Below are positions 7,820 to 54,060 of a DNA stretch of 56,204 bases, piece after piece. The notes beneath the pieces are model-generated. The model was not told where the DNA came from. It worked only from the letters and a program-made list of their open reading frames with translations, and did no database searches. The position numbers and the translations under genes are program-made. The DNA is from Moniliella sp. 'wahieum' (lineage: Eukaryota), in contig RSEE01000151.1 in the NCBI GenBank assembly GCA_003971905.1, forward strand, positions 62,001-118,204. The letters run 5' to 3'. Position 1 is the stretch's first letter, and every line of letters begins with the position of its first letter.

Positions 7820-10800
7820 GGCGGTGTGGGGGGGGGGGGGAGGAGGGGCAGGCAAGGCGTGTGGCGGGCGCGCTGCCGGCCTGGCGTATGTGCCGCTGGC
7901 CCGGGGGTAGTAGGAGGGGGTGGGGGGGCGGAGCGGGAGTTGGAGCGGACAGGGAGGCGGTGGAGGGAGGGAGGGAAGGCGGAGTGGTGGCGAGGGCGGT
8001 GAGGATGGCAGCACCATCAGAGCATCATCACCCACCCAGAATCCGCTCGTAGGCGGACGCGTCAAGCGTCGCAATAAGGAGGCAGCCAGTACGCTCGTGT
8101 GCCTCGCTTGGGCCGCAGCGGCCAGGCACTAGCCCAGCCAGCAGTCACGCGTCATGCATCATGCATCGCTCAGCCATCCATAGCACCCTGCCTGCTCCCC
8201 CGCATGGCGCCACTGTGCGCCGGCCATGGACGGACTGGACCCTGCGCCGGCCGCGCTCAGCTGAGCAGCGCCCCAGCGAGGCACCGCTGGGCGCAGCGGA
8301 TGCTCCGGCAAAGACAATGTCAGCAACCTCAGCTGGCAGGCAGCCTGCCCCGCCGCTCTTCTCCTCTCGCCGCGCCAGCTTCCCCGCCGTCGTCACCGCA
8401 CCCATCGAGCGTCGCATCGGCTGATGCGCCCCGCCACACCCGCTGCAGTGGCCCCTCGCCCGGGCCGTCCGCGGTGGCGGCGTCTTGCGCCGGGCAGTCA
8501 CTAGCTTCACTCTAGCCATCCTAGTCATCGGCGTTTGGTGCTATCATTATGTGTCAGCGCCCAGTCGGCCCTCAGGCCCTCACGCCCTCACGCCCCAGCC
8601 CTCAGCGCCTCGGAGCTCAGCTCAGCCAGCGGGCCGCAGCAGCGGCCCTCCCACCGCCACGGGGACTAGGGACGGCTGTATGAGTGGGTGGGGGCATCGT
8701 GCATCCTCCTCTGGTTTGGAGAGCAGCTCTATCAGGCGGTGGGATACATAGAATGTGTTCTTTTTCTCCAAGGAGCAATATGCCCAGATGGACCTGTGGA
8801 CGTGGGTTGCTCGTGCCGTTACACACATGATGCATGATAGGTTGCACGAACAGGAACGTTGGTTGGCGCTTCGCCTGCTCTCTCACAGACCCGAAAGTGC
8901 TAGGGTGCTCAGCACTCCCGCTGATTGTTCCAACAGCGACCGCGTGACTGTAGTACTGGCACCGGAAGACTGTGTCATAGAAGGTCATAGCGTCCGGGTC
9001 ACCAGAGTTGTCGGTGACCGGTGAGCTTCACACGCCATTTTCCATTTATAAGTGCGACGGTCAGCCTGAACGCTCAGCCTGAGCGCCTGAGCTCGCAATA
9101 ACGCCCAATTCCTAAGGCCTACGAGCCGAACGGCCTAAAGCCAGAAGGCCCTCAGGGAATGAACTCACGGTGGCTCAGACCCAGGCCGCAAGCAAATGAG
9201 TCAGAGGAAAATGATTCATGACAGGCAAAAAGATGAAGGAAATTCATTGAATTCAAAATCACTGATCGATCTCATCGAACCCATCCATCAAAGGGGCCCT
9301 TGGGGCAACGCGCTTCCCCATGGTCAGTACGTCAGTGTCAGTGGGTACGTGGACCGTAGAGGGGGAGTCAGTGTGGGGAACACCAATGATTAATGAGCAG
9401 GGATGTGACGTTGACGCTGACGCTAACGAGCTCTTCTCTGAGATCTCAGCCCTGGGCTGAGCGCTCAGGCTGAGCACCCTACTGGGCCTGAACGCCTCTA
9501 TTGAACGTTGAACGTACTGAACGTTGAACACGCTCAGCTCGCCGAGCGCCCGAGCGCCTCTTGCCTGTGGCGTGGCCAGGTGGTGGGCAGCTTCATACCC
9601 ACCGCAGCAGTATTTATAGCAACCGACACTCGGAAAGGCTAGGCCTTGGAAATTGGACAGATACTTACTTGCACGGTACGGGCCCACTGGCTACGTACCT
9701 CGCCGACACACCACACCCTCTCGGGCCAAGCCCTACCACTGCGGTGACATATGTGCGGGTGACATGTGATGTGTGATATGACGTGACGGGCCGGAGCACA
9801 CGAGCCTCAGAGCGTCCAGCGGCTCAGCACTGAAACTGAACTCGGCCTCAGCGCCTCAGCCTGCGAGCCGCTCGGCCGGCACACCGCAGCACCCCACGGC
9901 ACACCTGGCCCACCAGCCCACCGTCGCCATTCCGCCTCCATTCCGCTGCCCAGCCCCTCCTCACGTGACCATCCTCGCTTTTTGTTAACTGCACCTGGAA
10001 TCAACCTTCAAGTCCAGCCTCAGGCTCCTCAAGCGTCAAGAAGCAAAGGACCACTTGTTGCGCCATCCCAAAAGGGACATGCTATACGAGACTTTCTGCG
10101 GGGTTCAACGTTCAGTTCAGCGTTGCTCACGCTACCAGGTGGCTGCGCCTCAGGGCGTGGGACCCTCAGGGCCTCAGCCCCAGGCCCTAGTCAAGCAGCC
10201 TCAGATCCTCTCAGAGCCTGCGGATCTATGTACCACAGTGACGTAATATCCTCCACCCCATCTGTCCAGCGCACATCCCCTTGGTCTCGTCCGTTTCCGG
10301 CTCAGAAATATATATACCCCCTCTCTGGGCCGTACATAGATGGGTATATGGGGTCCATTTGTTATCAGTCCGCATTGACCTCAGCCATCTCACGTCAGCT
10401 GGCTCTTTTCTCAGCCGGATATGTCGTTGGCTTGAGCTGCTGGGAGCACTGGGCGCTGAAGTATAACAGGGGGCGTATGTGTTGAACCGATATACGTGTT
10501 GAGCTTTTGAGATCTGAGATGAGTACTGAGTTCTCAACGACGTTGTCAGCTGAGTACACTGAGCACCTGAGTTATCCAGAGAAAAATCTGGAGTGATCGT
10601 GACCTATCGAAAGGGAATACGTAGAGAGAGGGAGAGTTGTATACGAAGGGGAAGCTAGGAAAGTCCGGAGTGCGATCTGCGATCAGATATATTGATGAGA
10701 TTGGCAATACAGTTGTGGCCAAAATCGTTGTCAGCACGACACACACATGACTGGAAGAGATCTGCAGTCCGGATGGTCCTCAAAGGCGATGCAAATCGCA

Positions 10801-10918
10801 CTAGTGATGGCGGTGGTCTAAGACCTAAAAGCCAAGCAGCAACGCCTACACAGGAACATCAAGCAAATAGCTGCCACCAGGGGCTAAGCTGTGCAAAACA
10901 AAAGGAGAGAGAGACAAT

Positions 10919-11724
10919 TGTCACGGGCCAAGACGGGCTTGGCAAGCCCAGCGAAGCCTACGCGTGTGCCCTCCTTCCTAACCCCGTCCCCAAGTTGGTC
11001 ATGGGGTCAGATCTCAGAGTCGATCTGATCCGATCTCAGACCTCAGCTGAGGCCCGTCCGCTCTGCCCAGCAATAGACCGCGCTCCCGGATTCGACTCAG
11101 TGTGTTCGATCGCGGCTGGCAAGACTGCCAGGGCGTCGATTCCCACAGTTCAATGTTTCCCTTTTCGTCCTTGTCTGGTTCCAGTGGTTCGTGCTTTTCC
11201 CATACGGTCCATTGGCGTGTCCCCCTACTACTACTCTCTCCTCCTCTCGCCAATTGATCAAGCCAGTACAGAAATATCCTCTCTCCTTAGTTGCTCCTCC
11301 AGCTCCCGTCTTCATCTCTCCGCCCCTCAGTCAACCCAGTTTGCGCGTGCCTCGCAGCCGTGCCACGCCGAAGTCCAGCTCAGTTGATGAGTCGCGTGTG
11401 ATCCCGTCTCCATCCACGCCGCCCCCACAGTCTCCTCGTCCAGCTCCAGTCCGGCAGGGTAGGTCCTCCGCTGCCACTCCGCTACCCTGAGCCCGAAGGC
11501 TTCACTGGACACGCTACTGCCGCCGAAGCGGGTGCTACGCAGCCTTGCCACACTGGCAGCCGCGTCTGCTTTACGCCGAAAGGCCTCTCCTTGTGCCTAG
11601 CCCCCGCTCGGACCCACTAATAAGCACAGCGCGTACCTACCGTGAAATCGACCTTAGGACCTCCGAGGGATTGCACCCCGAACCTCCCCGGGCGGTCTCC
11701 CTGGCGGTGCTCCGGTCCGTGACT
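10919..11724. mobile_element. Probable solo LTR (~806 bp)
   Basis: Starts TGTCACGGGCC and ends GGTCCGTGACT (inverted termini, 9/11 match, terminal CA decayed to CT). Flanked by near-identical 5-mers ACAAT (10914-10918) and AGAAT (11725-11729), consistent with a target-site duplication. No credible ORF. Confidence 0.55.
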
Positions 11725-16240: not shown

Positions 16241-17812
16241 AGCTTTGACTGCGCACCAACCGCTGAAGGCACGGCCGTCGGTGTTACCTTGCCTGCCTAC
16301 CGGGCCCACCCGACACCAGCGCCACGAAGGCAAATCCCTCAGAAACTACAGCCCAAGCTCGGCGCCGCTCTGCTGGCGACGACAAGGGAGTGGAGGGCGA
16401 GAGCTGGCGGTGGGTGGCGGCGCCAGCGCGCCAGCGCAGGCACCGCCGCGAGCGCCTAGCGTTGCGGGACATTGAAGCGTATGCAACTGAGTGGCGGTAT
16501 AGGGCAAGTGTCCGGATATGACAAGAGCCACGGCGTCTCCGAAGGGCGGGTACTGGACGGTCGGCGATCCTGACGGCGCGTTGTGGCTGGCTGCGGCCAC
16601 TGAGTGTGAATGTAGCGCGTCCAGCTGGAACGGGTTCCCATTCCTGAAAAGCGTCCACGTGAGGGCACCGGCAGAGGGCCGGATGCACAGTGCGCGTCAT
16701 TGCGCTGTTGAGTGACCTTAGCGTCTGTGCCGAAAGTGCAAAGCCCCAAACAGGTGAGGGCTACATGCTGACGTGCGGGGTTCGCAGAACCAATCGAATC
16801 CCAAAGGGGCTCGATGTCGAGAGAGGCGTTTTGTCGGTGGAGCGTACCGATTGGATGGATGCGTCCCGCCATGCGCTGGTGTATGGGGATGCGGGGCAAT
16901 TCAGGCGGGCAGACGACATTGACAGTGTCGCTTGCACAGAAATTGGTGGGATCAAGCCTAAGAAAGGGGGCAGGTGATGGGTCGATTCCATCAGAGCCCG
17001 CTAGGGGGTAGAACAATAGGGGGTTAGGCCTTAGCCGGTTAGGCCTTAGGATAGACTAGCACCGGAGACGATCACGTGACACATCACGGACACATCACGG
17101 GATCGGTCCGATGCATGTGCGGGAGGGTAGTGTGAGGGTCCCCTGCACGGCTCTTAAGTTGATTGGTGGCATTTTACACGAGCGGAACACTTTCGACCGG
17201 TTAAGCGAGAGCGTCACCGATCCACTGAGGGGTACCGGGGAAGCCTATAGCACTACCCCCCCAACAGAAGCAAGCGGCGGCTGCGAAGGCACTAAGAATG
17301 TCATCCGATAGCACTTCCTCGTTTTACATGTGACGCTCGCCGGAGGAGTTGCGCTGGCAGGCTGCGATGCCCCCTGCTCGCTCCATCTCCCTCCTCTCGC
17401 TTCGGCCTGCTTCCCTACAGACACTGCTTGAAGACGTGTGGCTCGCACTCAACCCGCCAGGGGTCACCGTCACCCATCCCATGGGTCATGTGCCACACGA
17501 CAGACAAACGCGTGAGCTTTTGAACCCACTTTCGCCGAACTGATAGGTTCGTGAATATCGATGGAGCGATGATCGATGATAGATGACTTCCTTACGCTCG
17601 GATTTGGCCCTTACGTACTCGCTGCCCCCATACTGCCCATCTGCGGGCCGGCGCACGAAATTTTTTGAAGCCAAACGAATCCACACGAGTATACTCGACT
17701 GAGTGTACTGAGTCTCAGTCCTCACTGTGTACGAGTGCTGGCCGCTGCGTTTTATTTGGGACAGAGCAAGCGGCCCGAGCGCTGGGCTTGTTTCCTCCAC
17801 CCAACCACCACC

Positions 17813-19687: not shown

Positions 19688-21997
19688 AAATGCCTACCCC
19701 CCTCCTCCCCGGGACATCGCACTCCCACTGTAGCATTCCAACCCCGACATCTACCTAGTGCTGCGGCACATCAATACCATCCACGTTCTCTCTGCTTCCC
19801 TCATCCCCTCGACTCCTTCCTCTCATTCATCTTTCAATGCGATCGCCATCCGTAATCCCATCATCATGGCAGGTAATGCTGTGCCCTATACTAAGCAATT
19901 ACGGCAGTGACCGTGTTTTACCGTCATGAGGTTTCAGAGTACGTTCGGTCCTGAGTGTACTGAGCACTGAGCAGCCGGTTTCATAATCGGTAACCATTGC
20001 AGTAGACAAAGCGGACTCGGACAACCTCGATGGTGTGACATGTGAACATGCGCTTAGCTACACCTCGTACCGCCTGCGGCTCGCTCAGCTTCCGGGTAAC
20101 GTGCCGGCCGTAATCTGCTTCGATCTCTTGGAAGAAGAACACCTCCCAGCCTCACCAGCGAGCGAATGGGAGAAACACACTGAGGCGGGGCGCCTGCCGG
20201 TCACACCGGACCCCGGGTTGCCCGGGTCCCGTTGTCTTAGTATAATTTTGTGCAACTGACTGCCTCTGCCGTCATTGTGCGCTTTGGACGTGCGACCAGC
20301 AGACAGGCATACGTGCTGCGTCACATCCACCGCCACTGCCCTTTCGGAGAGGCCACAGGGTATATAAAGCCGGTATGATCTCCTGACGCAGGCAGAATCC
20401 ACATCCTCGCCCCCCCCCACGCACGCCTCTCCTCCCAAGAATCCCTCCTGCGAACGCGTTGTATTTTGGAGGGAGATCAATATGGCATTTGCAGCTGCCA
20501 TCTCGAGCAAGGCAAGCTGATCACGTGCAGTGCTCACTCAGTACTCACACGCAGTGTAGGACTACCTGGTGGGTCACGTGACCCCTCACCAGCTGCGGCT
20601 GAGCTGATGCACCGACGGCGCCTACGAAAGCTGGGAACCCGGAAACGTGAAACCTACGACAACCCTACGCGCGCCTCTCGGGCTCAATTGGCTAGGGTTG
20701 GCTTACGGGCCGGGTGCTCTGGAGCACCTGAGGCCCTGAGCCCTGAGGGCCTGGGCGAACGGAAAGCGATCCGGATGGCCGCCGGGTGCACTGATATGTA
20801 GATACGGGCTCGATCCGGCTCTATCGCCCAGCGGAGCAACCGCGGCAGCCCTGGGCGGACATAACATTTGCGGCGGCCACCTCGGCCACTGGCTCCAAGG
20901 CGGGGAAGAAGCGCGCCAACGCCCACAGCACGTTGCTGGAAAGCTGTCCTGACTGTGATGTTTCTTCCAGTGGGCTGGTGCTAGGCAAAGGGCGAGTGCC
21001 CGCACAGGAAAGGACCTGCGCCAGGGGCAGGGCGTCTGTGTTCGGGACAAGCCGCTCTGGTTGCAAGACAGGGAAAGACGCAGTGCCCGTTTGCGAGGGG
21101 GCGATCAAGCCCACGACGGCGTCAGCCCAGCGGCCTGCTCCCATCGCCTTATCAGTAGCAGACTGACTTGTGATGGGGGTGAGCGCTGACCCACATCGCT
21201 GGTGCGAGGGTGGGCGTCTACGCGGGGGGCACCTGCCCTGCGCCCCCAGGCGCAGCGAACCATTGTCCCGCGCAGTGTGACAAGCGGCGGGCGAGATGCT
21301 CCGATGGGTTTGGCCTGTTTGGGCGGTGCCTGAGCTTGGGGGAAGCACAGGGGAAGGGATGGAGTCACGCGTGACGCCAGAATTACCCGCTCTCTGGTTC
21401 TTCGAGCTCGCCCCTCGCCTGTTGGCATGTCTGGCACTGAAAATTGATCATCCACCGCACCAGCCCACAGGAGACGGTACGTCAAAATGGGTTTTGGGCG
21501 CCCCTCGCCAGCCGCCACAAGAGGGCTGTGGTGCTTGATCGGTTCGATGATTAATGATTGCAGAATGCGGCGCAGGGCTGGCGCTGGCCGGTGACGCGGT
21601 GACTGGGGATGCAGGAGATGCGATGAGATCGATGAGCAGCTCTATGAAGAGCACAGGCCCGGTGAAACAGACCAAGTCCAGGCCTGCCTTGGAGCGCGTC
21701 TGCACTTATCGCAGTTTGACTTGTGGGCTGCCCGGACATGGTCACCACCGCCGCCATTCCCTTGACCGTCCCCAAGCCCGCCGTCCATCTCGCCACCACT
21801 TGGCTGGATAGCCCTACGGCCTACACGCCAGGCACCGCTCTGACAACAGCTTCAGCCCACTTATCGTCCCTGGCGGCGTGTTCCTTTTCACCCCCCGCAC
21901 CTATATCTAACCCCCGGCAACACACATCTCCTCTTCTTTTTCGTCCTCCACCGCCACCCTTTTCTTCGCCCTCCCTCCCTCCCCCTCCACCGCCATC

Positions 21998-24062: not shown

Positions 24063-24389
24063 ATCGCGTCGAAACACTGTTTTCCTCCGCGTGTGCGCGA
24101 CAAACCAAGCCATGCGATGCCGGCATCCTGTTTCTTTATACGCCCTCTTCCTTATACGCCCCCGCCCCTTGGTCATCCTACTGTCTGCGCTTTAATTCTT
24201 AGTGTGGCTCCTCCACACTACCTCCATCTTGAAACACTCTTGTTGAAAGGACCCCCCTTTATCACTTTTGTATGATACACTTGCCATTGATATTGATGAT
24301 CCACTTGCCCCATCCAGCCCCGAAACATATGTTTATTAGATTGGCCTACTCAGTCCTCAGTACTCAGTCTCCTCAGTACACTCGGGTTT

Positions 24390-24935: not shown

Positions 24936-25192
24936 GCTGAGGTGTGAGCTGTGAGCGGTGAGCGGGTGAGCGGTGAAACAGTGTACAAGACATATAAGAG
25001 TAGTGATGGGATCGACGAAAATGCAGCCGCGTCGGGGGGCTAGGTTGATCGACAACCTGATCGACCAGGCCCCTGATCAGGGTTTGCCAAAAAGCCGGAA
25101 ACAAAACAACGCCCTGGAGGAACAGTGCCATGGACATTGGCATTGACATTGACATGGATCGAACACCCGGTGGCGCAGCCACGCGGGTCTGC

Positions 25193-29034: not shown

Positions 29035-30684
29035 CGAGGCCAAGACAGAGCCGAGCCGGGGCCGGGCGGGGGGATGGAAGGAGGAGCTTGCTATCCTCGA
29101 CGTGTGTTCGAATGGCCTGTGTACTGCTAGCAGCTCCTCAGTCATCGGCAGCAGCCGGAGAGAGGGTGACAGCGCGTCATCTATCACATGAAACGTTCCG
29201 GAACGTACGCTTTTTGTTGCACGTCGTACCTCGGTCCCAGCCAAAACAGGCAAGCCGGCACAGCGCCAGTCTGGGCGCTGCCTCGCCTCTACCTGCAAGT
29301 CGTTCTTTCTGGCCTGGCGGCGTATGCTGCACCCAGCACACCCGAGCAAGTCAGCCCTCCGCCCAACAACCCCCCAGGTTAGGCCCAGTCGCCGTTCGGC
29401 CGCTCTACAGCGGCAAACCCTCGCGGGTGGCAATTCAGTCGGAATACGCCGTCCTCATCGGTGTCAATGAAGCTTCAAGCTTCAAGTTGAAGCTCCAAGA
29501 GGGCCCGCGAGATGCCAGTCGCCGTCAAGGCGGCGAAGCGTAGCGGGGCAAAGCGGTCTTTTACTTTCGCTACAGCAGCCATCCGGACGCTATCAGCACT
29601 GTGGCCCTGTACAGTCACATGTCACACGTCACCGGGTAGGGGATTGGTTGCATGGCAGGGGCGCGCGGAGCCTTGTTGCGGAGACCCGAAAAGCTTTAAA
29701 CCTCCTCAGGCCCCAAGCCGGAAGCTGGAAGAGGGGCCCGAACGGGACGTGGACTATAGGACGCCAGATGCGCCCACGTCCTGAACCACTGCACGTTGAA
29801 TCGCCCCGTGACTAGCATGACTCGACAGTGCGGCCGTTATTTGCTTCGCTTGCCACAGATTCCGCGGCCCCGACCCCGCAGTGGTGCAATCCCGGATATA
29901 AGTGCGGCTCCGGGCATAAGCATACCCCGCGCACCACAGGTGTACGTATGTAACGGAAGGGGGTGTACTTTAACCCGCGTCTTTCATGCCTATACGCGGC
30001 CCGCTGAAGCTTGAAGCACGCCAAAAAGCTCCGAAGCACAGCGGACGACAGTAGGACACGGCAGTGGCCACGTCGGACGTGTGGAGGCGCGGTACACTTG
30101 GCTTCAGGCCGCAGGCCTGTAATAGACTTACTCTGTTCTGCACGCCCCCAACCTTAGCTATACACAGGGTTACAGAGCAAGATGTGCCCTGACCGCTAAT
30201 AGCTACCACTGTGAGGATGGATCAACAGTGTCGATAACGCCCAATCTTCTGCTGTCCATATAGAGTGCACATGGACGTCATTCCAGCCGCGAGCCATACC
30301 ATAGTGTAAGACCGGAGGAACCCAAGGATTTGATTGGGTGGATAACCTCTGGAAATGTAGAGCAATGCAATCGCGGTGATAGTGGTTAAGGATTAAGCTG
30401 TCTGCCCTAGAGGCGACAGGGGTTCAAACAAGCCGGAGTATAAAAACGTGGAAACTTCGGAGGTCAAGTAAAGGGGCAAAGGGGGAAAAGGCGCCCTGGC
30501 CCATGTGCGGGCCCGTGGGTCCCAACACATAGAGCACACCTTATATAACAAGAAAATACCACACCGATTCACCCCGGACTGTAGTTTGCCGACGGACTGA
30601 AAGCGGGCGGGGAAGGCGAAGACGAAGTAGACGTGGAAGGCACAGCAAAGACAGGTGAGCGTGCGCCAGGCCAATCCAACTCGC

Positions 30685-33816: not shown

Positions 33817-34307
33817 GGCGGGCGCGGTGGCGGAGGTGGCGGGCACAGAGCGAAGAAGAGCCAAAGCAGACGCCAGAAAAAGCGAAGACAGCGTAATCGC
33901 CCTGGCTGCTTCCAGCTTGACGCTTAATTACCTGAGCGGCTTATCGCAACACTGCCGCCTGCCGGGCGAGGATCGTGATCATCGACCGTCGGATATGCAT
34001 ACGCCGCAAACAAAGTTAGCTAAGCGCCGGCGCCAGCCGCGGCACTTTAAGTAACGAGCGAACCAGCGCAGGCGGAACGCGTCACGCGCGTCGGCGTGTC
34101 ACTGTCACACATCACACGCACATCACGCCCCTTCCAGCCCCTTCCGGCTCACCGGTCACCGATCACCGGTCACCGGCACCACGCTTGCGCATATCCGGCC
34201 AAGCCGCCTGTGCGTGCTTGGCTTGCAGGACTATACGAGGGAGGGTGTGCTCGCTACAGGGTATGCATTCAGCCGGAGCGACCGGGCCGACCAGTCCAGC
34301 CCCGCGA

Positions 34308-35302: not shown

Positions 35303-36715
35303 GCGGGGTCGTCTGGCGTCAGTCGGGGTAAGGCGGGGCAGATGGAGACGCGGGGGCCGCATGATCGCTTGTGGCCGAGGGCGACACTTTGCGTGCCGGA
35401 GCAAAGAACTGTTCAGCACTAGCGGGCATGCGCGTGGTTAGCTGGCGAAGAGACAGCGCGCGTATTGCGGAGCGGCGAGCTCACCTCTTGCTCATGCTCT
35501 GGCCCGGGAAACGATAGCAATGTGCGTGTGGCGCGCCCGCCCCAGCAATTGCGACAGCCGACAGCAGCCAACCGGATTGCGCCAAGCGAGCCGGTGGATT
35601 ACGTAACACCCGTCTGCTCTTCCATCCACTGCAAGCTCCGCCGCCTTCTGTGACACTTGCTTCTGAAATCCCTTCAAAACTATACGCTCAACAACGTTCA
35701 CTCCCTCAAGGAAGAGGAGGCCTGAGGGGGTCAGCGAGCAGCCCCATCGCTCATGCGCTCATCCATCTGGGTCGGATCGAGCTCGTTCATCGATCCTTCG
35801 CCTTCGTTGGCGCCGATTCAGAAGCTGGACATGCGCACAAGGCGTTTCCAAAAGACGTCTCTCTGTCAGCACTTGTTCGCAGCAGCCAGCTCAAGGCTCA
35901 GCCTGGCTCAGCCTTCCATCGTTGCGTTTGATCCATGCGGGAAACGTCGATACGCTCAGTTAATGCTGGGTTCAACGAGCGCTCAGCCTGTTGGTTCAGC
36001 AGCCGCGAGCTGACACGCACACGCAATTGCTGGTTCAATCTGCTGAGCTAGAGCACCCCATAGACGCTCTGTTGGTGACGATCGCAGCCGTCGAGTCGGT
36101 GCTGATGCGCTGATGCGCTGATGACTTGGGTTCAAATGGACCACGGTGGGTCCAGAGCTGGGCATGGCCGAGGACCAGCTGGTGGCCGCCGTCGTGACAG
36201 AGAAGTCGAACTTGCGGCTGGGCTCACTTGGCACGACGCATAACCGGCCTAACCATCCATAACCTCAGCAGCACCGGGCGGGCACGGGGGAAGCGGGCGG
36301 GGCAGTAGGGTTGGCCCAGGGTTGCACTTGTTTGCGCTCACAGTTTAATTTGAGCTCGGGGCGCTGGCCGCAGGCAGGGGCGGGTTGGCGTTGAAAGGGC
36401 TGGTTGGCGTCGCACGGCGCCAGTGGCCGCACCCGGGAATAGAACCATGCTCCCAGCGCAGCGGCCGCAGCCCAGCGCACCCCGTCGCGCTGCCCCTCCC
36501 CCCACGGGCTGCCTGGCCCGGGCCCAGCACGGCGCCAGTGCTCCCACCCCCCTGGTTTCACGGCGCTCGCTGTAGCGCATCGCATCGCACGGACCCCCCC
36601 GCCCGACGCAGCAGCAATAAAACCCACTTTGCTTCCGCCCCGCCGCGCCCACACCTTCTCCCCATCACCTCCCCTCCCTCCACTCCCCCTACAGCCACAT
36701 CCATACTCACTCACC

Positions 36716-37474: not shown

Positions 37475-38158
37475 TTTGCCCTCACGACAATGATATTGAC
37501 CAGCAGCGCAATGACATTTACTGCACTACAAGGTCTAGTCATCTGGTCATCGATTATCCTGCTCTGGTAGTTATTTGCTGTCTCGCACGTTTGCAGATCT
37601 CTTGTGTTTCGTTAGATCGGCTCTACACTGTGTGTGCCGTATGCGTCGTCGCTGTCCTCTCAGGGAGCGCACTGCTGAAGGAGGAGTGGAATGGGGATGT
37701 GGTTCTGAGGAGAGGTACAGGAGGCTATGAGAAGGGTAGGGCCTTATATAGACGAGGGTACCGCGGAGCTGAGGAAGCTTCCGGGCGGGTAGAGGGGTGA
37801 TGACTATCACGCAGGATGGCGTGATTGGGGCATCGCCCCAACAGGCACTACTAGATGGTAGCTGAGAAATTTAGAACCCCATGGAATAGCCCAAACCGAT
37901 CGCGCTGAGATTATCGATTAGGGGGCTGCTGAAGGTCGGAAGATCGAGGTGCCGCAGCGCAGATGGCACTATTGAATCGAGGCCTACTCCTCAGCCGGGG
38001 GGCGCAAGGTGTGGCGCTTATTACGTCAGCATGCCCCCATACCAAACTCCCATGATTAAACGAATGAGCTCGGGCCACTTGCCTTGAGCATGGGCAGCTA
38101 GTTTCGTGCCTCTTCTCCCCTCCTCCACCTCTCTTTTGATCGCTGCACCATCTTGACC

Positions 38159-38793: not shown

Positions 38794-39502
38794 ATCGGAC
38801 CGGTCCAGCTCGACAGGCCTGCGGCGTTGGCCCCCGTATCAGGTCCTGTACTCCCCTTGAGGCGGGATACACCGAGTGGCAGTGTACTGGACGCCGCCAG
38901 TGACACGTGCGATGTGAGTCCGCGACGTCGGAGCTCAACACACAGCTTGTGAGATTGGAATTGGAATGGTCCATGCTAAGAGCGCTAAGGGATGATTGGT
39001 GGGCGCTGCGTCGCGTGATATGTATATAGACACCACCTTAGTCATTTTTATTTCCCCCCCGGCTGCACTCCTGCTATCTCCCATGGCCAGGTGCTAGCGA
39101 GAGTCCCTTCCAGAACAAAGACAGTGTCGCATCCATGCTGCCTAGCGTGCCGGACCGCCGAGCTTGCCAGCTACAATCCGCCACATGGTTCGTACTTTTC
39201 CAGAATCCTCATTGCTGCCTCAATTGTTTACGATCAACGAGGCACGCGAATGCAGAGTCGATCCAGACTATCAAACTGGCTGCACTTGGACCTCTCTGTC
39301 GCATCCATCCTCTGTGCATGGTAGTGAACTGGCATGAAGATTTTCTCTCCAGACTGCCGAGCATATAACTCACTCGCTCACTAGTTTCGTTGATGGCAGG
39401 GCCATGGGAACGTTGGAATGCGTCGATTTACACCATATACAAGGCTCTGTTCTTCCAAGTGTGCACTGGTATCCGCTTAAGCCCGAGTCTCAGATCTCAC
39501 CT

Positions 39503-40307: not shown

Positions 40308-42904
40308 GGCCGTACACACTGTGTAGGAGGCAGGCGTAGGAGAGAAGAGATAGAGAGAACAGTGAGAGGGTCAGGGCACTGCGAGGGGTGGAGATGGTGC
40401 GCGTGGTGGCTTCAGGCCTACAGAATGCGCTTGCCTGGTGGTGGGGACCCTTGTGGGTGCCCTGCAATCCTCCGTTGATTAATCATGGCCCGCGCCAACC
40501 CGCCCTGGAAATTTGTCCCAGGGCGTAGGAGGCGGAGCGCAGTGCTTGTCAGGGTCTCCAGGGATGGGATGTTAGTACTTAGTACTTGGCTGGTATATAA
40601 AGTTTCTCTACAGAGGCCGCTTTGGACCTTATCACAAAGAACAAGAGTGTGGCATTGATTCCCTCAGGGCTGAGCCTCAGCCTTACCTCGGTTTAGCAAT
40701 TGATGCAAGCTAAGGCAAGACCGAGGATATAACCATGACATGTGACATGGGACAAGCAGCGCAGCATTCTTCTTGAACAAGAAGCACACGAGAATGAGTT
40801 GAACAGAGCGCAACTAAGAGCAAAAGAGAAAAGTTGAAAGGGAAATGCATTTTGCTCAACCTCAGGAGAGGTGGGATGGGCAGACGTAGACAACAGTTAT
40901 CAAGCAGAGAAGAGTTTATACGCACTGGTGAAAACCCAAGGATATGCTAGGACAAGGGGTGCTAGGACGAGCAGCTGTCGGTACGAATGTAGCATGCCGT
41001 ATGCACGGGCGAAGACAGGCGAGCGAGCCAGTTGAACTTATGCGCCCCGGTTGCTTTCTGCGCCCCCAACCTGGTCAACCACTGAACCTATCCCCTCGCG
41101 GCTTCGACCTCACCCAAACGGACTAGCCAAAAACAGGCACGATGGCTCCACGGCCATCCCTTGCTCTTCGGATAGCCGAGGCATTGTTCCAGCCCAAAAG
41201 TAATTTACTCTCGAGCGGCGTTACTTCTTTGAGGAGTGGGTCCGCACGTAGGAGTAGAAGGCTGGGTGGGCGATAATCATGGAACAAAGAACGTCGAGTA
41301 TTCCGTTCGCCAGCGTGTGGGATAGTGGCCGACGGACGTAACCCTAAAGAGGGCCAGTCGCTGTGCTAGCACCACCGCTTGGGGGACCCTCAGTCATCCC
41401 TTTCCTATCGCAGTCGACAGGGGAAAGGTAGTACAGGAGATAACCTGCGTGGACAAGGGGACAATGTGTTGCTGAATTGCGTTGCCATCTCCCTCTGTCT
41501 AACAAAAGACGGATGTGAACTCAAATTGTGGTGCGGTGCCATGTCTTCCTAGCTCGCCAGTGGGGCGCATCTTACAAGACATCCTGTTTTCACATGTGAA
41601 AGTCAGTGATGAGCAAAAACGCAATGGTGGGGATTTACGCCAACCCCTGCATGCATACCGCCGAGCAAGCCGACGCTCGTCATGCCGTTGCGCCCCTTGC
41701 CTCACATCCTTCCCTCTTACCGGTATTGTCGCCCACATCGGCTCGTACCTAGGATCCTAAACCTGGAAGGGGAAAAATTGGACGAGGGGGGCGGGCGTAA
41801 AAGTATGCAGAGTGGTCTTGATGCTTCGCGCTCGGTTGAGACAAAGGGCGATCACATTTTGAACGTAGTAACGGGATGGATGGGAGGACTCAACAGCTCC
41901 TGCAAAAGAACATCTTCGTGTTACTCGTCAACCCTGCTTGCTTCGAGACAGACAAGACTGAGCACTGGCTTCGGAAATCGAACTCATCTTTGCAGCCACG
42001 AGAGCGCGAAAGGGCCCACACTGATCACGCCGCTGAGATCAGCGGGCAGCGCAGCGCCAACACACATGTTGAACATGGAACATGCTAGCAGGGAGGATGC
42101 CTTGGCACGAGGGAGAAGTGAGTAGTAGGCGCCTCGACGCCAGGCCAGTAGTGATGCCAACCCTGATTATGCACGTTTAACGGTACAAGGGCTGGGAAGA
42201 GGTCCGGGGCAATCCAGCACGCGAGGGTTGGGAATGCATCCTAAGCGACGTGTATCCAGTGTAGGGTGAACAGTGCCGAGTCCAGCACAGTAGCTCACGT
42301 ATGGTTGATGGCATGTTCAAGGGGGCGTCGCACAAAATGGAGAGGATGGGGAGTGTAAGACCAGACGAAACGCAAGAATTTGGATGGAGAACCTGAGGAG
42401 CATCAGTAAGCGTTGACAACCGTTCGAACACGCCGGAGCATGCACGCGTGGGCTTCGGAGGGAAAGAAGGGGACAGGGGGTGGTGACAAAGCGCTGCGGC
42501 CTGCAAACGGGACGCAGGTCGCAACAGGTAGAGTGCCTCTGGCGAAGGCAGGCGGCTGGTGCACAGGTGGGGGCGGGGCGTGGCTGCGTCCTGGTGGGCA
42601 GGAGCGACTGACGTCAGCGCGTCAGCGGTCAACGTGGTCAACCTGGTCCGCATTCCACTTTTCAATTCCAGCCGCCGAAATTTCAGGCTTCTCACCCTGT
42701 TCGACAACCGATGTGGGGGGCGGAGAGCGGCGGGTGGGGTTATGCAGCGTCGGGCGAATGGATGGACACGCGCCCTGCATGGCTGTGTTTTATATAGGCC
42801 TCCGCTGGCGCCACCCCCGTCGGGCCGCAGCAACTAGTGACGCCGACGGTACTGGCAGCGCCAGGCATATACAAGCGAGCACAACAATGGGTTGGGCAGC
42901 CTCC

Positions 42905-48508: not shown

Positions 48509-48577
48509 GGTGGTGGGTGAGGGGGTGAGGGTTAGGGTGGGGTGGGTGAGGGGGGTGAGGGTTAGGGTGGGTGGGTG
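48509..48577 (+). repeat. Degenerate telomere-like G-rich tract (duplicated ~29-bp unit containing TGAGGG-TTAGGG)
   Basis: GGTGGGTGAGGGGGTGAGGGTTAGGGTGG at 48512-48540, repeated with one extra G at 48541-48570. Confidence 0.7.
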
Positions 48578-48643
48578 TAACTTTTGAACGGGGCGTCGGA
48601 TTGAAAAACGGAGGGCATATGCTGCATAGAGCGGACGATTTTA

Positions 48644-48774
48644 TAGCGAGCTATCGCCTCGGCATAACTCTCAACCCTTTGGGTAGCGAGCTATCGCCTC
48701 GGCATAACTCTCAACCCTTTGGGTAGCGAGCTATCGCCTCGGCATAACTCTCAACCCTTTGGGTACGAGCTATC
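48644..48774. repeat. 40-bp perfect tandem repeat, 3 copies plus a partial
   Basis: TAGCGAGCTATCGCCTCGGCATAACTCTCAACCCTTTGGG at 48644, 48684 and 48724; partial copy at 48764. No spacers. Confidence 0.95.
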
Positions 48775-48988: not shown

Positions 48989-49315
48989 CCATTTTTTTTT
49001 TCGATACCGTGAACCATCCAAAGTCATCATCTGTTGCACTGGCTTCGTAGCTTTCCATTGATATAGGTCTCGCAGCGCCACGACGCCTGGGGGTCTCTGT
49101 AACTGTGCGCGAAGATCGTGCACCTGGGGGGGTCATGTACTTGTTCCGCCTTTGATACCCTCTGGCCATTTTTTTTTTCGATGCCGTGAACCATCCAAAG
49201 TCATCATCTGTTGCACTGGCTTCGTAGCTTTCCATTGATATAGGTCTCGCAGCGCCACGACGCCTGGGGGTCTCTGTAACTGTGCGCGAAGATCGTGCAC
49301 CTGGGGGGTCATGTA
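48989..49315. repeat. 177-bp-period direct repeat, 2 near-identical copies
   Basis: CCATTTTTTTTTTCGATRCCGTGAACCATCC...CACCTGGGGGGTCATGTA begins at 48989 and again at 49166. Confidence 0.92.
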
Positions 49316-49451: not shown

Positions 49452-49710
49452 ACGTTCAACGTTCAAGGTTCAACGTTCAACGTTCAAGCTTCAAGCTAAG
49501 GTTCAACGTTCAACGTTCAACGTTCAACGTGTTCAACGTCCAACCGTTCAACAGTTCAACAGTTCAACGTTCAACCGCTCAGCGCTCACAACCGCTCGAC
49601 GTTCAACCGCTCAGCCTTGAGGTCAAGCTTGAGGCTCAAGGCTCAAGCTGCTCAAGGCTCAAGCTCAAGCTCAACGGTCAACTGAACGTTCAACGTTCAA
49701 CGTGTTCAAG
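49452..49710. repeat. Heptamer microsatellite (TCA-ACGT)n mixed with (TCA-AGCT) and related units
   Basis: ACGT TCA ACGT TCA AGGT TCA ACGT TCA ACGT TCA AGCT TCA AGCT... from 49452, with further runs to ~49710. Confidence 0.9.
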
Positions 49711-50383
49711 CCAGGCCGTCGGCCCGGTGGTCCTCTCGCTGCTTTACAAGTTAGAAGCTACGACGTGCGCTTGAGCTATTCTAACCATGGAACAAGCGGT
49801 GGCTTGGGCCGTGCTCGCGCAGCCCCTCGATAGCCATCTCCGAGGCGCTTCCTGGGGAGTACCGACGACCTGCCATACATCTGCGACGACTCTGCTGCGC
49901 CCGTACTCATGCAACACCCCGGCACCCATAGTGTACCATCGCTATCAGCTTGGCCGTTATAATGTTGTGGGATCATGAGTTGCAGTGCAAGCGCGTGGTG
50001 GGTGGAGAGGTCCGAGAGGTCTGGGGATGGTGCAGGCGCATGCAGATGGCCAGGTGGACAACCATCCCGCACGCAGATTGACCAGGTGTTGATCCATTCA
50101 TCAGTCCCATCAGTGCATCAGTCCAGCAGGCCAGGAGAAGGAGACGGGGGGCGCGGGGGCGTGCGAGGGGGTGCGAGGGCAGTTGGGCCTGCAGGCACGC
50201 CCGCTGAGCGCTGGCCGAGCTCTCAAACACTGGCATCTGTCGGGTGTGCAGCGTGGCGGCGTTGCCGTTGTGAACGGCAGCAAACAGGGGCAGCGGGCGT
50301 AGCGGCGGTGCTCTGCGAGGCGGCAGGCGTTGTGGCCCCAGTCGGTGGTCTCTGCAGGGGGCCGTACGTGCAGACTGCCCGAG

Positions 50384-51025
50384 TGACTAGTGACATGTGA
50401 CAGCTCAGCCGTGCGGCTCTAGCGGCGGTGCGCTGGCCACGGCAGCACCAGCACTGAGTACGTTGAGTATGTTGAGTACGTTGAGTACGTTGAATGTTGC
50501 ATCATGCAGTATTCACCGGTCACCAGCGCTGAGGCGCTGCGGCGCAGGCGGTGGCAGAATTACCACACAGGTGCAGTGGCTGCACCTCCGCTGAGCCCGA
50601 GGCCCGGCGTTCGGAGCACTGGACCGCGGGCGTATGGATCATCGATCCATCGATCATCGCCGATGAGTCACCGAGCCACGCCGATGACCGAGGACGTCGA
50701 TCATCGAATCATCGAATCATCAATATAATCACGTACAATGATGTAATGGGTACTGAGTACGTACTGAGTACTGAGTACTGAGTACTGACGAGTGACGCGT
50801 GAGGAGTGACTAGTGACTGGTGACTAGTGACTGGCTTGGACATGCGTGGTACTGCGGTGGCTGGTGCGCTGATGCACTGATGGCGCGTGATATGTGACAG
50901 GTGACGCGTTGCGGTGATGCAGCGCAGGGGCATGCAGCATGCGCGAGTTGAATTTGACATGCGAGATGACATGTCCATGCATGCATGCTGTGTGGCCTGT
51001 GGCCTGTGGCATGTGACATGTGACA
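50384..51025. repeat. Cluster of mixed TGA-N4 heptamer arrays
   Basis: TGA CTAG TGA CATG TGA (50384); TGAGTACGT 9-mers (~50455-50495); ten in-phase TGA-N4 units at 50765-50834; TGT GGCC repeats and TGA CATG TGA (~50990-51025). Confidence 0.85.
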
Positions 51026-51339
51026 GTCGCGCGCATGGGCGGCACGGGCCGGCAGCGTGCTGCGGGATGCATGCTCAGAGACCAGTGCGGTGCTGCGCCG
51101 GCAGTGGCCGTGGATCGGGGATCGCTGATCGACGCTGCCAGGGACGCTGGCCTGGGGCGGACGCCACTGACTGTGAGCTGTGCCGTGCTGCGAGTTGCAA
51201 CCCCGCCGGCCAAGCACACAGCGGCTGCAACGTACAGCACACATCAGCTCCATCTGGGCGTGCTCCCATGCTCATTCCATCCTGGCAGCGCTCCTTTGGC
51301 CCAGATCCGACGTTGGAAACACTCAGATTGACCTCCTCG

Positions 51340-53640: not shown

Positions 53641-54034
53641 TGTACGTGCGGGCGGGGCGATGGCAGGCCGGTGCGGCCGAGTGGCTGAGTTGATGCTGGC
53701 GGTGCTCGTGCAGTTGGGCTTGGAGTGGGGCATGGGTGGCGCGCAGGTGTGGGTGTGGGAGTGCTCGGTGCGATGCACGCGTGCGGGGTGTGGGGCGGGG
53801 CGCACAGGCGGCGCAGGGCGGGGTGGCGTTGGGTGGGTGCGATGGTGGGGCTGGTGGATTTGGGATGCGATGGGCGGCGGACGGATCGGCGGCGGAGGAG
53901 GCGTGGATCGCGTGATCGATGATCGATGAGCGACGACGCCTCCGAGTTAAACGGGAATCGTAACTAGTAATTGCGGTGCACGGACGTAGCGGACGGTGAT
54001 TGGGGTGGTGGATGGGTGAGCGTGTGCTGAGTTG

Positions 54035-54060
54035 GCTTGAAGCTTGAAGCTTGAAGCTTG
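54035..54060. repeat. (TGA-AGCT)n heptamer microsatellite
   Basis: GCTTGAAGCTTGAAGCTTGAAGCTTG. Confidence 0.85.

What the first reader, a model, noticed from the sequence alone, without database searches (positions are those of the whole stretch)
8145..54060. Window-wide intergenic 7-bp grammar: (TNA + 4-bp palindrome)n with interchangeable palindromic spacers
Seen directly: intergenic DNA carries short arrays with TGA/TCA (sometimes TTA/TAA) every 7 nt, separated by a 4-bp palindrome whose identity differs by locus. Examples: TCA CGCG TCA TGCA TCA TGCA (8145); TGA TTAA TGA (9387, 21548); TGA ACGT TGA ACGT (9502); TGA GATC TGA..TGA GTAC TGA (10508); TTA GGCC TTA (17024); TGA TCGA TGA (17570, 53913); TCA GTCC TCA GTAC TCA (24350); TCA CATG TCA CACG TCA CCGG (29615); TCA CCGG TCA CCGA TCA CCGG TCA CCGG (34149); TTA GTAC TTA GTAC (40572); (TCA ACGT)n/(TCA AGCT)n (49452); TCA GCGC TCA (49579); TGA CTAG TGA CATG TGA (50384); (TGA AGCT)n (54038). 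At least 13 of the 16 possible 4-bp palindromes are used. I saw no such arrays in the exons or the gypsy ORFs. Because T-N-A is itself an interrupted palindrome, each array is self-complementary except at one base in seven (hairpin/cruciform-prone). One dispersed repeat family cannot explain so many different spacers. Inference: a dedicated process writes these arrays in situ (fold-back/template-switch synthesis or hairpin-opening repair at TNA sites, or footprints of a TNA-targeting transposase/nuclease), or a TGA-N4-TCA-binding factor selects for them. I recall TCACGA/TCGTGA-rich heptamer tracts in Ustilago maydis intergenic DNA that would fit the same TGA-N4 period; that recollection needs checking.
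Basis: partly seen in the sequence, partly recalled or inferred. Interest (0 to 1): 0.82.

Follow-up and report, generated by a model that had tools for sequence, protein, structure and literature searches.

The report
Heptamer scars at TNA sites
The DNA between genes of this smut-related fungus is peppered with short 7-base repeats that look like repair scars left each time a break was made around a T-any-A site, so they record a mutational process rather than a regulatory code.

Summary
TNA + 4-bp palindrome + the same TNA occurs 55 times against about 1.5 expected. No other trinucleotide shows this. 13 of the 16 palindromes are used. None of the 35 direct clusters lies in a Pfam-supported exon.

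The grammar can be restated more simply. The unit is a direct duplication of a segment centred on TNA (ab-TNA-cd), with a junction predictable from the two outer flanks. The spacer is cd+rc(cd), rc(ab)+ab or cd+ab at period 7. One or two inverted nucleotides are added at periods 8 and 9. So the palindrome is an inverted copy of the local flank, which explains why it differs by locus.

This matches a 7-nt staggered break at nnTNAnn whose flank ends were hairpinned, opened 2 nt off the tip and joined. That is the pattern of excision footprints of hairpin-forming cut-and-paste transposons. 7-bp-TSD hAT7 and Kyakuja families are reported in other Basidiomycota (PMC12730594).

No transposon or transposase is present in the window, so the agent is inferred. 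No description was found in seven literature searches. Interest is moderate to high.

The parts
764..777 (.). CC TAA CATG TAA CA, R form (spacer = cd+rc(cd))
1379..1392 (.). GCTCAGG x2, plain 7-bp duplication with TCA centred (P0)
4090..4112 (.). CATCATG+G, period 8 (D7 + 1 inverted nt)
8143..8163 (.). TCA CGCG TCA TGCA TCA TG, mixed-spacer array; first spacer is not flank-predictable
8578..8592 (.). CCTCACG+C, period 8 (P1), inside the 8567-8611 array
8826..8839 (.). CA TGA TGCA TGA, L form
9013..9026 (.). GG TGA CCGG TGA, L form
9078..9092 (.). CCTGAGC+G, period 8 (P1)
9385..9398 (.). AA TGA TTAA TGA, L form
9500..9529 (.). two TGAAC GT TGAAC 12-mers separated by GTAC
9758..9771 (.). TGA CATG TGA, palindromic spacer not predicted by the flanks
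9846..9860 (.). CCTCAGC+G, period 8 (P1)
10103..10116 (.). GT TCA ACGT TCA, L form
10506..10531 (.). two abutting 12-mers: TGAGA TC TGAGA and TGAGT AC TGAGT
11005..11018 (.). TCA GATC TCA GA, R form
17022..17050 (.). TTA GGCC TTA ... TTA GGCC TTA GG
17568..17581 (.). GA TGA TCGA TGA, L form; about 100 bp upstream of the ABC-F ORF
17698..17713 (.). ACTGAGT GT ACTGAGT, period 9 (D7+P2)
19959..19972 (.). ACTGAGC x2, P0 with TGA centred
20034..20047 (.). TG TGA CATG TGA, L form
20536..20549 (.). AC TCA GTAC TCA, L form
21178..21191 (.). TGA GCGC TGA, not flank-predictable
21546..21559 (.). TGA TTAA TGA TT, R form
24355..24368 (.). TCA GTAC TCA GT, R form; about 300 bp 3' of the permease ORF
24943..24971 (.). 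TGTGAGC x2 (P0) followed by GGTGAGC+G (P1)
29473..29486 (.). CTTCAAG x2, within TGA AGCT TCA AGCT TCA
29613..29631 (.). TCA CATG TCA CACG TCA
30003..30016 (.). TGA AGCT TGA AG, R form
34147..34174 (.). TCA CCGG TCA CCGA TCA CCGG TCA CC
36101..36123 (.). GCTGATG+C x2.9, period 8 (P1)
37909..37922 (.). GA TTA TCGA TTA, L form
39488..39501 (.). TC TCA GATC TCA, L form
40570..40587 (.). TTA GTAC TTA GTAC TT
40734..40749 (.). TGA CATG TGA CATG
42612..42642 (.). CGTCAGC+G (P1) then GGTCAAC GT GGTCAAC (D7+P2)
49452..49703 (.). largest array complex: (TCAACGT)n, (TCAAGCT)2, GTTCAAC+GT, GCTCAAG x2, GCTCAAG CT GCTCAAG, TCA GCGC TCA
50099..50124 (.). CATCAGT three times with fillers cc and g
50382..50402 (.). 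AG TGA CTAG TGA CATG TGA CA: both spacers predicted from the two flanks (L + R)
50455..50493 (.). (TGAGTACGT)4.3, period 9 = GTTGAGT + AC
50511..50524 (.). TCA CCGG TCA CC, R form
50700..50721 (.). (ATCATCGA)2.75, period 8 = AATCATC + G
50750..50834 (.). 10-TGA chain: GTACGTAC spacer (P2P2), (TGAGTAC)4, then CGAG/CGCG/GGAG/CTAG/CTGG spacers
51010..51025 (.). CATG TGA CATG TGA CA
53911..53931 (.). TGA TCGA TGA TCGA TGA
53959..53972 (.). TAA CTAG TAA, not flank-predictable
54035..54060 (.). (TGAAGCT)3.7

Best explanation
The arrays are mutational scars, not a code.

Shown from the sequence:
- Each unit is a direct duplication of a short segment centred on T-N-A (ab-TNA-cd).
- The junction is built from the local flanks. 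It is usually cd followed by its reverse complement, or the reverse complement of ab followed by ab. Either gives TNA + 4-bp palindrome + TNA at period 7.
- Rarer junctions are a plain 7-bp duplication, or one with 1, 2 or 2+2 inverted nucleotides (periods 8, 9 and 11).

Inferred mechanism:
- A symmetric enzyme cuts the two strands 7 nt apart around TNA, so each end keeps a copy of nnTNAnn.
- The flank ends pass through covalently closed hairpins that are opened about 2 nt from the tip, giving 4-nt self-complementary 3' overhangs (P nucleotides).
- One overhang is ligated to the recessed 5' end of the other side.
- That adds 2 nt on one side and removes 2 nt on the other, so the period stays 7 and the spacer becomes a palindrome of the local flank.
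- Once a TNA is flanked by a palindrome, every junction type gives the same product. Perfect heptamer arrays are therefore an absorbing state. They can grow by further events or by ordinary slippage.

Most likely agent (inferred, not seen): repeated insertion and excision of a cut-and-paste transposon with a 7-bp target-site duplication and flank-hairpin chemistry, of the hAT, MULE or Transib type. A less likely agent is a transposon-free, possibly domesticated, nuclease of that type.
For: 1. Specificity for TNA. X3-pal4-X3 is enriched only for TGA, TCA, TTA and TAA (55 vs about 1.5 expected). D4+P3 forms that lack the first T are not enriched (4 vs 5.0).

2. Duplication. The same N is present in 55 of 68 hits.

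3. Centring. Among maximal exact 7-bp direct repeats containing a TNA, it sits at offset 2 in 5 of 8 with no filler and 4 of 6 with a 2-nt filler. That is 9 of 14 against 0.2 expected per case, P = 4e-4.

4. The spacer is templated by the flank.
- 21 of 24 isolated 10-mers extend by 2 nt or more on at least one side, and only 2 do so on both sides.
- The extension on the other side is 0, 1 or >=2 nt in 16, 3 and 2 cases. Unrelated sequence would give 15.8, 3.9 and 1.3.
- The partial neighbour copy lacks exactly its 2 distal nt in 12 cases, while every other mismatch pattern occurs once or twice.
- 12 of 20 exact D5+P2 hits are TNAxy, and the other 8 are close to the chance level of 5.7.

5. 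Unified test: the spacer is predictable from the outer flanks for TNA cores. P0 18 vs 0.07, R 34 vs 0.03, L 28 vs 0.10, P1 8+8 vs 0.03, P2 4+2 vs 0.03, P2P2 1 vs 0. 49 of the 55 same-N pairs are flank-predictable, and there are 49 loci in all.

6. 2-nt fillers between exact D7 copies are P-consistent in 5 of 8 TNA-centred loci. For units without TNA the figure is 2 of 33 phase instances (Fisher P = 0.0014).

7. The mixed array 50382-50402, AG TGA CTAG TGA CATG TGA CA, is exactly L + R events on an ancestral AG-TGA-CA.

8. Established knowledge.
- hAT, Transib, MULE and RAG all form hairpins on flanking DNA. Host nucleases open them and end joining then leaves footprints (PMC5499845, passages read).
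- hAT7 (Pucciniales) and Kyakuja (Agaricomycotina) make 7-bp TSDs (PMC12730594, passages read).
- Galileo makes 7-bp TSDs with an odd-palindromic consensus (PMC2775673, passages read).
Against: - No transposon with an nnTNAnn TSD is present in the window, no terminal inverted repeats with TNA flanks, and no transposase, RT or integrase domain (0 of 325 ORFs).
- The density is very high for footprints in a genome that looks transposon-poor: 49 loci in 56 kb.
- In rice, natural excision scars are messy. Only 8 of 94 are perfect TSD pairs (PMC4423477, passages read). The regular forms dominate here, although my searches can only see regular forms.
- The known hAT 8-bp target consensus (recalled, not checked in any call) has T and A further apart than nnTNAnn. 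The TSD consensus of hAT7 and Kyakuja could not be read because it is in a figure that is not held.
- The 1-nt filler test is weak: 9 of 11 for TNA against 8 of 12 in TNA-free controls.
- Six palindromic pairs are not flank-predictable.
- Long inverted CTSAG palindromes are not explained by the model.
- Paralogous satellite copies show no such indel, so no event was caught in the act.
- All counts come from a single 56-kb window.
Confidence: 0.5

Rival explanations
1. A transposon-free host process. A TNA-specific, hairpin-forming or staggered-cutting nuclease, for example a domesticated transposase, breaks intergenic DNA. Its repair writes the same scars without any element ever being inserted.
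For: It predicts the same sequence signatures as the best explanation. It also fits the absence of any transposon in the window and the very high density in a transposon-poor context. A domesticated hAT transposase that makes hairpin-capped breaks in a yeast is known; this is recalled (Kat1 of Kluyveromyces lactis) and was not checked in any call.
Against: No candidate gene was seen. A 7-nt stagger in which both ends keep a copy is the hallmark of strand transfer by an inserted element, not of a simple nuclease. Frequent germline breaks would be costly.
Confidence: 0.17
2. Ordinary replication slippage. Heptamer microsatellites expand preferentially when the unit is self-complementary because hairpins promote slippage, and a still unknown bias favours TNA.
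For: - Short tandem duplications of every period are in excess: period 6, 52 vs 12.4; period 8, 16 vs 0.9; TNA-free period 7, 8 of 16.
- Long homogeneous arrays fold well as single strands (z = -6.4 and -4.2).
- Higher-order duplications occur inside arrays, such as the period-14 repeat at 50806-50834.
Against: - It does not explain why only A...T-closed 6-bp palindromes occur. C/G-closed palindromes, which would be more stable, are not enriched.
- It does not explain why the basic unit is a 12-mer with one unrelated flank rather than a full 14-bp duplication.
- It does not explain why neighbouring units keep TNA but carry different palindromes.
- Mixed arrays do not fold at all.
Confidence: 0.15
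3. Selected cis-elements. The arrays are binding sites for a factor that reads TGA half-sites 7 bp apart, or three-frame stop barriers, and are kept by selection in promoters and 3' regions.
For: They lie between genes, some within about 100-300 bp of ORF ends (17568, 24355, 29473). TGA every 7 nt puts a stop in all three frames of one strand.
Against: - The spacer is set by the flank, not by a consensus, and 13 different palindromes occur.
- The arrays occur upstream and downstream of genes and in a satellite-rich, gene-poor block.
- Orientation is mixed: 27 TGA and 22 TCA hits.
- Variants of periods 8, 9 and 11 follow the same junction rule.
- Palindromy of the spacers has no role in this model.
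Confidence: 0.08
4. Footprints of an element with a 3-bp TNA duplication (PIF/Harbinger-like or CACTA-like). In this model the 4-bp palindrome is the last 2 nt of each terminal inverted repeat, as in Tc1/mariner scars.
For: TNA with the same N on both sides looks like a 3-bp TSD. CATG, which would be CA...TG termini, is the commonest spacer (9 of 45 clusters). TTA GGCC TTA at 17024 resembles a Tourist-type scar; that resemblance is recalled.
Against: - It would need elements with 13 different terminal dinucleotides.
- It predicts no relation between spacer and flank, yet 49 of 55 pairs are flank-predictable.
- It does not predict plain 7-bp duplications centred on TNA.
Confidence: 0.05
5. An assembly or base-calling artefact.
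For: None was found. The reads were not available.
Against: The structures are locus-specific and obey a flank-dependent rule. They are absent from exons. They include single 12-mers as well as arrays.
Confidence: 0.02

Closest known systems
Excision footprints of hairpin-forming cut-and-paste transposons (hAT, Transib, MULE) and P nucleotides of V(D)J coding joints
   Same: Both show two direct copies of a target segment joined through a short inverted copy of the adjacent flank. P additions of 0, 1 or 2 nt occur, with a matching loss on the other side. Flank-hairpin chemistry is documented for these families (PMC5499845).
   Different: No element is seen here. The scars are extremely dense and regular, they are centred on TNA, and they build tandem arrays. 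Reported natural footprints are mostly irregular (PMC4423477).
hAT7 (Pucciniales) and Kyakuja (Agaricomycotina): basidiomycete DNA transposons with 7-bp TSDs (PMC12730594)
   Same: A 7-bp duplication in Basidiomycota. hAT7 groups with Ac and Tam3, which are hairpin formers.
   Different: They are reported from other subphyla, and 'Ustilag' does not occur in the paper or its supplement. Their target consensus could not be read. No homologous sequence is present in the window.
Galileo (P superfamily, Drosophila): 7-bp TSD with the odd-palindromic consensus GTAGTAC (PMC2775673)
   Same: A 7-bp TSD with two-fold symmetry around a central base.
   Different: It is an animal element with a different consensus. 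P-type excision is not known to use flank hairpins (recalled).
Tc1/mariner footprints (TA + terminal nucleotides + TA)
   Same: Both have the form of a duplicated target flanking a short palindrome.
   Different: In Tc1/mariner scars the palindrome comes from the element's ends and is constant for each family. Here it comes from the flank and differs at each locus.
Tn10/IS10 target GCTNAGC (recalled)
   Same: A symmetric target centred on TNA.
   Different: It is bacterial, makes a 9-bp duplication and forms hairpins on the element ends. This is recalled and comes from no call.

Membership tests
Transposon excision footprint (hAT/MULE/Transib type) | Two direct copies of a fixed-length target-site duplication | tested here: met
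   TNA-centred exact 7-bp repeats: offset 2 in 9 of 14. P0 form 18 vs 0.07 expected.
Transposon excision footprint (hAT/MULE/Transib type) | Junction nucleotides that are inverted copies of the adjacent flank (P nucleotides) | tested here: met
   R 34 and L 28 against 0.1 or fewer expected. 2-nt fillers P-consistent in 5 of 8 vs 2 of 33 controls. The 1-nt test is inconclusive (9 of 11 vs 8 of 12).
Transposon excision footprint (hAT/MULE/Transib type) | An element of the family, with the same TSD, present in the genome | tested here: not met
   In the window only: no TIR pair with nnTNAnn or TNA flanks and no transposase domain in 325 ORFs. The rest of the genome was not available.
Transposon excision footprint (hAT/MULE/Transib type) | Empty-site and occupied-site alleles at the same locus | not testable with these tools
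   No second strain or species was available. Paralogous satellite copies show no such indel.
hAT7 / Kyakuja | 7-bp TSD | tested here: met
   for the window. PMC12730594 for the families.
hAT7 / Kyakuja | Target consensus equal to nnTNAnn | not testable with these tools
   The TSDs are shown only in Figure 1 of PMC12730594, which is not held. The supplement holds consensus sequences only.
PIF/Harbinger-type 3-bp TSD scar | A 3-bp TWA/TNA duplication flanking remnants of the element ends, independent of the flank | tested here: not met
   The spacer is predictable from the flank in 49 of 55 pairs. TSA-TSA at spacing 0 is not enriched (48 vs about 50).
Slippage microsatellite or minisatellite | Whole-unit tandem copies with random phase and uniform decay | tested here: not met
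   The isolated loci are 12-mers with one unrelated flank (16, 3 and 2 against 15.8, 3.9 and 1.3 for unrelated sequence). Truncation pattern: 12 cases against 1-2 for any other pattern. Long arrays may still grow by slippage.
Transcription-factor site array (inverted TGA-N4-TCA) | Inverted half-sites with a constrained spacer | tested here: not met
   Direct pairs 49 vs inverted pairs 8 among TSA hits. 13 different spacers.
One dispersed repeat family | Similarity extending beyond the motif between loci | tested here: not met
   Self-BLAST gives 13 HSPs and none links separate loci.

The most novel reading that the evidence does not exclude
This fungal lineage carries an endogenous, TNA-specific, hairpin-forming DNA-breaking activity that acts without any resident transposon. 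It could be a domesticated hAT- or RAG-like transposase. It repeatedly breaks intergenic DNA in the germ line, and V(D)J-like repair writes palindromic heptamer arrays genome-wide. This would be a self-reinforcing mutator that creates its own preferred targets.
Probability: 0.15. Interest if true: 0.85.

Novelty: new variant of a known kind. Interest (0 to 1): 0.64.

Why it matters
If the reading holds, several things follow.
- Ordinary intergenic DNA of a transposon-poor fungus keeps a dense, decodable record of DNA breaks at TNA sites. From that record the target, the 7-nt stagger and the 2-nt hairpin-opening offset of an unseen enzyme can be read off.
- It shows how footprint repair can seed tandem repeats and then lock them in. 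Palindromic heptamers are a fixed point of the process. This would be a route to microsatellite birth that differs from slippage.
- It gives a concrete search image for the responsible element or nuclease: 7-bp nnTNAnn duplications.
- It gives a marker class for strain typing in Ustilaginomycotina.

If the agent proves to be a host nuclease, it would be a rare case of V(D)J-like chemistry acting genome-wide in a fungus.

Tried and rejected
- Terminal-inverted-repeat elements flanked by TNA, by any inverted repeat or by identical nnTNAnn 7-mers. Only chance or within-array hits were found. One 10-bp pair at 23116/26613 starts inside the permease exon and matches the roughly 0.4 pairs I estimated by hand for chance (no call computed this).
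- Pfam scans for RT, integrase or transposase. All 173 ORFs of 120 aa or more were scanned, plus 150 of the 173 ORFs of 70-119 aa that lie in unannotated regions, out of 282 ORFs of that size in the window. None matched.
- Rfam and tRNA scans: nothing found.
- Alignment of 9 copies of the ~190-bp satellite, to catch a heptamer insertion between paralogues: none found.
- k-mer enrichment: only modest signals, so the effect lies in the periodic structure and not in composition.
- General palindrome excess: near expectation, apart from TSA-centred palindromes.
- A crude codon-usage map was too insensitive to use.
- Protein search with a translated array, looking for the same arrays elsewhere: no hit.
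- Literature: seven text searches found no description of such arrays. PMC7218506 ('palindromic microsatellites') concerns mitochondrial A/T palindromes and is unrelated.
- Models rejected on the data:
  - a 3-bp TSD plus element-end remnants;
  - a 7-bp duplication of a pre-existing odd palindrome followed by decay;
  - D4+P3 without the first T;
  - independent keeping or trimming of the two overhangs (P2P2 seen once; TSA-TSA at spacing 0 not enriched).

Full report
**What the window is.** It is nuclear DNA with 59% G+C from a member of the Ustilaginomycotina. A RAD16 ORF (31004-32245, minus strand) is 74-75% identical to Testicularia, Thecaphora, Kalmanozyma, Sporisorium and Ustilago proteins. 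It is 91% identical only to unnamed database entries.

Pfam-supported genes:
- DUF2985, 6.1-6.8 kb, minus strand
- ABC-F, 17.7-19.6 kb, plus strand
- purine/cytosine permease, 21.9-24.06 kb, plus strand
- Zn2Cys6 factor, up to 29.45 kb, minus strand
- RAD16, 30.7-33.3 kb, minus strand
- triosephosphate isomerase, 36.4-37.8 kb, plus strand
- DJ-1, 38.2-38.7 kb, plus strand
- carboxylesterase, 42.4-44.9 kb, plus strand

None of the 325 ORFs scanned has a reverse transcriptase, integrase or transposase domain. There is no tRNA and no Rfam hit.

All 16 cited sites read as quoted.
- TSA-N4-TSA occurs 114 times against 44.8 +/- 5.8. With a palindromic N4 it occurs 57 times against 3.1 +/- 1.8 in order-3 shuffles, or 7.4 +/- 3.0 at order 5. 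No other spacer length stands out.
- The pattern X3 + 4-bp palindrome + the same X3 is enriched only for TGA (27 vs 0.68), TCA (22 vs 0.70), TTA (4 vs 0.10) and TAA (2 vs 0.05).
- There are 68 hits in 45 clusters. The two TNAs share the same middle base in 55 hits and differ in 13.
- Thirteen of the 16 palindromes are used.
- Exact period-7 tandem duplications number 37 against 3.7 expected, and 19 of them are self-complementary but for one base, against 0.5 expected. Periods 5, 6, 8 and 9 show no such bias.
- Chains of three or more TNA at period 7 number 20 against 2.8. In these chains TNA is kept while the spacers differ, and 34 of 54 spacers are palindromic.
- None of the 35 direct clusters lies in Pfam-supported ORFs, where 6.7 would be expected. 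TGA being a stop codon makes part of this trivial.
- Self-BLAST shows no dispersed family linking the loci.

**A simpler rule underlies the grammar.** Four findings lead to it.

1. The isolated 10-mers are really 12-mers.
- 21 of 24 continue the 7-nt periodicity by 2 nt or more on at least one side, and only 2 do so on both sides.
- On the other side the extension is 0, 1 or >=2 nt in 16, 3 and 2 cases. Unrelated sequence would give 15.8, 3.9 and 1.3.
- Starting instead from perfect TNA-centred odd palindromes, the partial neighbouring copy lacks exactly its two distal bases in 12 cases. Every other mismatch pattern occurs once or twice.
- The unit is therefore TNAxy + y'x' + TNAxy. That is a 5-nt direct repeat separated by the reverse complement of its last two bases, with an unrelated sequence on the far side.
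- Twelve of the 20 exact hits of this form begin with TNA. The other eight match the chance level of 5.7.
- A 7-bp duplication of a pre-existing palindrome followed by decay does not fit these patterns. A 3-bp duplication with element-end remnants does not fit either.

2. When a 7-mer containing TNA is duplicated exactly and no further, TNA sits in its centre. This holds in 5 of 8 cases with no filler and 4 of 6 with a 2-nt filler, so 9 of 14 against 0.2 expected per case (P = 4e-4). Examples are GCTCAGG x2 (1379), TGTGAGC x2 (24943) and GGTCAAC GT GGTCAAC (42627).

3. Write the site as ab-TNA ... TNA-cd. The spacer can then be predicted from the outer flanks far more often than chance allows:

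| Form | Spacer | Observed | Expected |
|---|---|---|---|
| P0 | cd+ab | 18 | 0.07 |
| R | cd+rc(cd) | 34 | 0.03 |
| L | rc(ab)+ab | 28 | 0.10 |
| P1a, P1b (period 8) | one inverted base added | 8 and 8 | 0.03 each |
| P2a, P2b (period 9) | two inverted bases added | 4 and 2 | 0.03 and 0.00 |
| P2P2 (period 11) | two added on each side | 1 | 0 |

- 49 of the 55 same-N pairs are flank-predictable, and there are 49 loci in all.
- Two-base fillers between exact centred 7-mers are inverted flank copies in 5 of 8 loci. In TNA-free units the figure is 2 of 33 phase instances (Fisher P = 0.0014).
- The one-base test is not informative: 9 of 11 against 8 of 12 in controls.

4. The mixed array AG TGA CTAG TGA CATG TGA CA (50382-50402) is exactly one L event plus one R event on an ancestral AG-TGA-CA. 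At 10506-10531 two complete 12-mers abut out of phase.

**Mechanism.** The following is shown by the sequence:
- a duplication centred on TNA;
- a 7-nt register;
- an inverted copy of the 2 flank bases at the junction.

The rest is inferred.
- A symmetric enzyme cuts the two strands 7 nt apart around TNA, so both ends keep nnTNAnn.
- The flank ends become hairpins, which are opened 2 nt from the tip. This gives 4-nt self-complementary 3' overhangs.
- Ligation of one overhang to the recessed 5' end of the other side adds 2 nt on one side and removes 2 nt on the other. That produces exactly the R or L form at period 7.
- This also explains two negative results. 'Both overhangs kept' is seen only once, and 'both trimmed' (TSA-TSA abutting) is not enriched (48 vs about 50).
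- Opening at or nearer the tip gives the P0, P1 and P2 variants.
- Once a TNA is flanked by y'x' and xy, all junction types give the same product. Perfect heptamer arrays are therefore an absorbing state. Slippage and higher-order duplication (period 14 at 50806-50834) can then enlarge them.

This chemistry is established for hAT, Transib, MULE and RAG: hairpins form on flanking DNA, host nucleases open them, and end joining leaves footprints (PMC5499845, passages read).

Seven-base duplications are reported for hAT7 in rust fungi and for Kyakuja in mushrooms (PMC12730594, passages and a supplement search). Galileo shows that a 7-bp duplication can have an odd-palindromic target (PMC2775673, passages).

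The most likely agent is therefore repeated insertion and excision of such an element.

**What argues against this.**
- No such element, terminal repeat or transposase is present in the window.
- Forty-nine loci in 56 kb is very dense for a genome that looks transposon-poor.
- Natural footprints in rice are mostly irregular; 8 of 94 are perfect (PMC4423477, passages).
- The target consensus of hAT7 and Kyakuja could not be read.
- Six palindromic pairs are not explained, and neither are the long inverted CTSAG palindromes.
- No event was caught between paralogous satellite copies.
- Everything rests on one window.

A transposon-free or domesticated nuclease would give the same scars, and I keep it as the main rival.

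**Other rivals.**
- *Pure slippage driven by hairpins.* It does not explain the restriction to A...T-closed palindromes, the 12-mer with one unrelated flank, or mixed arrays that do not fold (0 kcal/mol at 50380-50410; only the long homogeneous arrays give z = -6.4 and -4.2).
- *A binding-site code.* It is contradicted by flank-dictated spacers, by direct rather than inverted half-sites (49 vs 8 among TSA hits), by mixed orientation, and by occurrence on both sides of genes and in a satellite block.
- *A 3-bp TNA duplication with element-end remnants.* It would need 13 kinds of termini and predicts no link between flank and spacer.

**Novelty.** Seven full-text searches found no description of such arrays. 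The one 'palindromic microsatellite' paper concerns mitochondrial A/T tracts.

I rate this as a new variant of a known kind. The scars are footprint-like and carry P nucleotides, but here they are centred on TNA, unusually dense, and self-organising into heptamer arrays.

**Confidence.**
- About 0.5 that the arrays are hairpin-type repair scars left by insertion and excision of a 7-bp-TSD element at TNA-centred 7-nt staggered breaks.
- About 0.17 that a transposon-free nuclease made the same scars.
- So about two in three that the arrays are such scars, whichever agent made them.

Noticed in passing
48512-48577: Degenerate telomere-like repeats (GGGTTA/GGGTGA units) lie inside the window. They sit at the start of a gene-poor, repeat-rich block that also holds the densest heptamer arrays.
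   Followed up: partly
48644-48774; 48989-49315; 51463-52759 (degenerate copies to about 53.6 kb): Three tandem repeat families: a 40-bp unit x3.3 (98% identity), a 177-bp unit x1.9 (98%), and a ~190-bp satellite x6.5 (about 88%). No protein domain is present and no heptamer indel distinguishes the copies.
   Followed up: partly
8255-8266, 9071-9085, 9438-9449, 9445-9461, 9457-9468, 11041-11052, 17707-17719, 40668-40682: Perfect 12-17-bp palindromes built from inverted CTSAG pairs, for example GCTCAGCTGAGC and CTCAGCCCTGGGCTGAG. Palindrome arms of 6 bp or more are in mild excess. They are not explained by the R/L junction rule. They might be longer inverted copies made by the same process.
   Followed up: no
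7.8-11.9 kb: A 4-kb stretch without any Pfam-supported ORF holds 14 of the 49 TNA-centred loci, together with many CTCAG/CTGAG-containing short repeats.
   Followed up: partly
54289-54560: A poly-C run (31 bases) and C-rich 11-21-bp repeats. GC skew is -0.24 over 54-56 kb.
   Followed up: no
whole window: Short tandem duplications of all periods from 6 to 9 are in excess even without TNA: period 6, 52 vs 12.4; period 8, 16 vs 0.9. So there is also a general background of small duplications.
   Followed up: partly
49471-49499 vs 54032-54060; 50634-50661 vs 53900-53927: Heptamer arrays in opposite orientation bracket the satellite block (inverted repeats of 83% and 79%). This may only reflect the near self-complementarity of the arrays. 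A foldback-like element was considered but not supported.
   Followed up: partly
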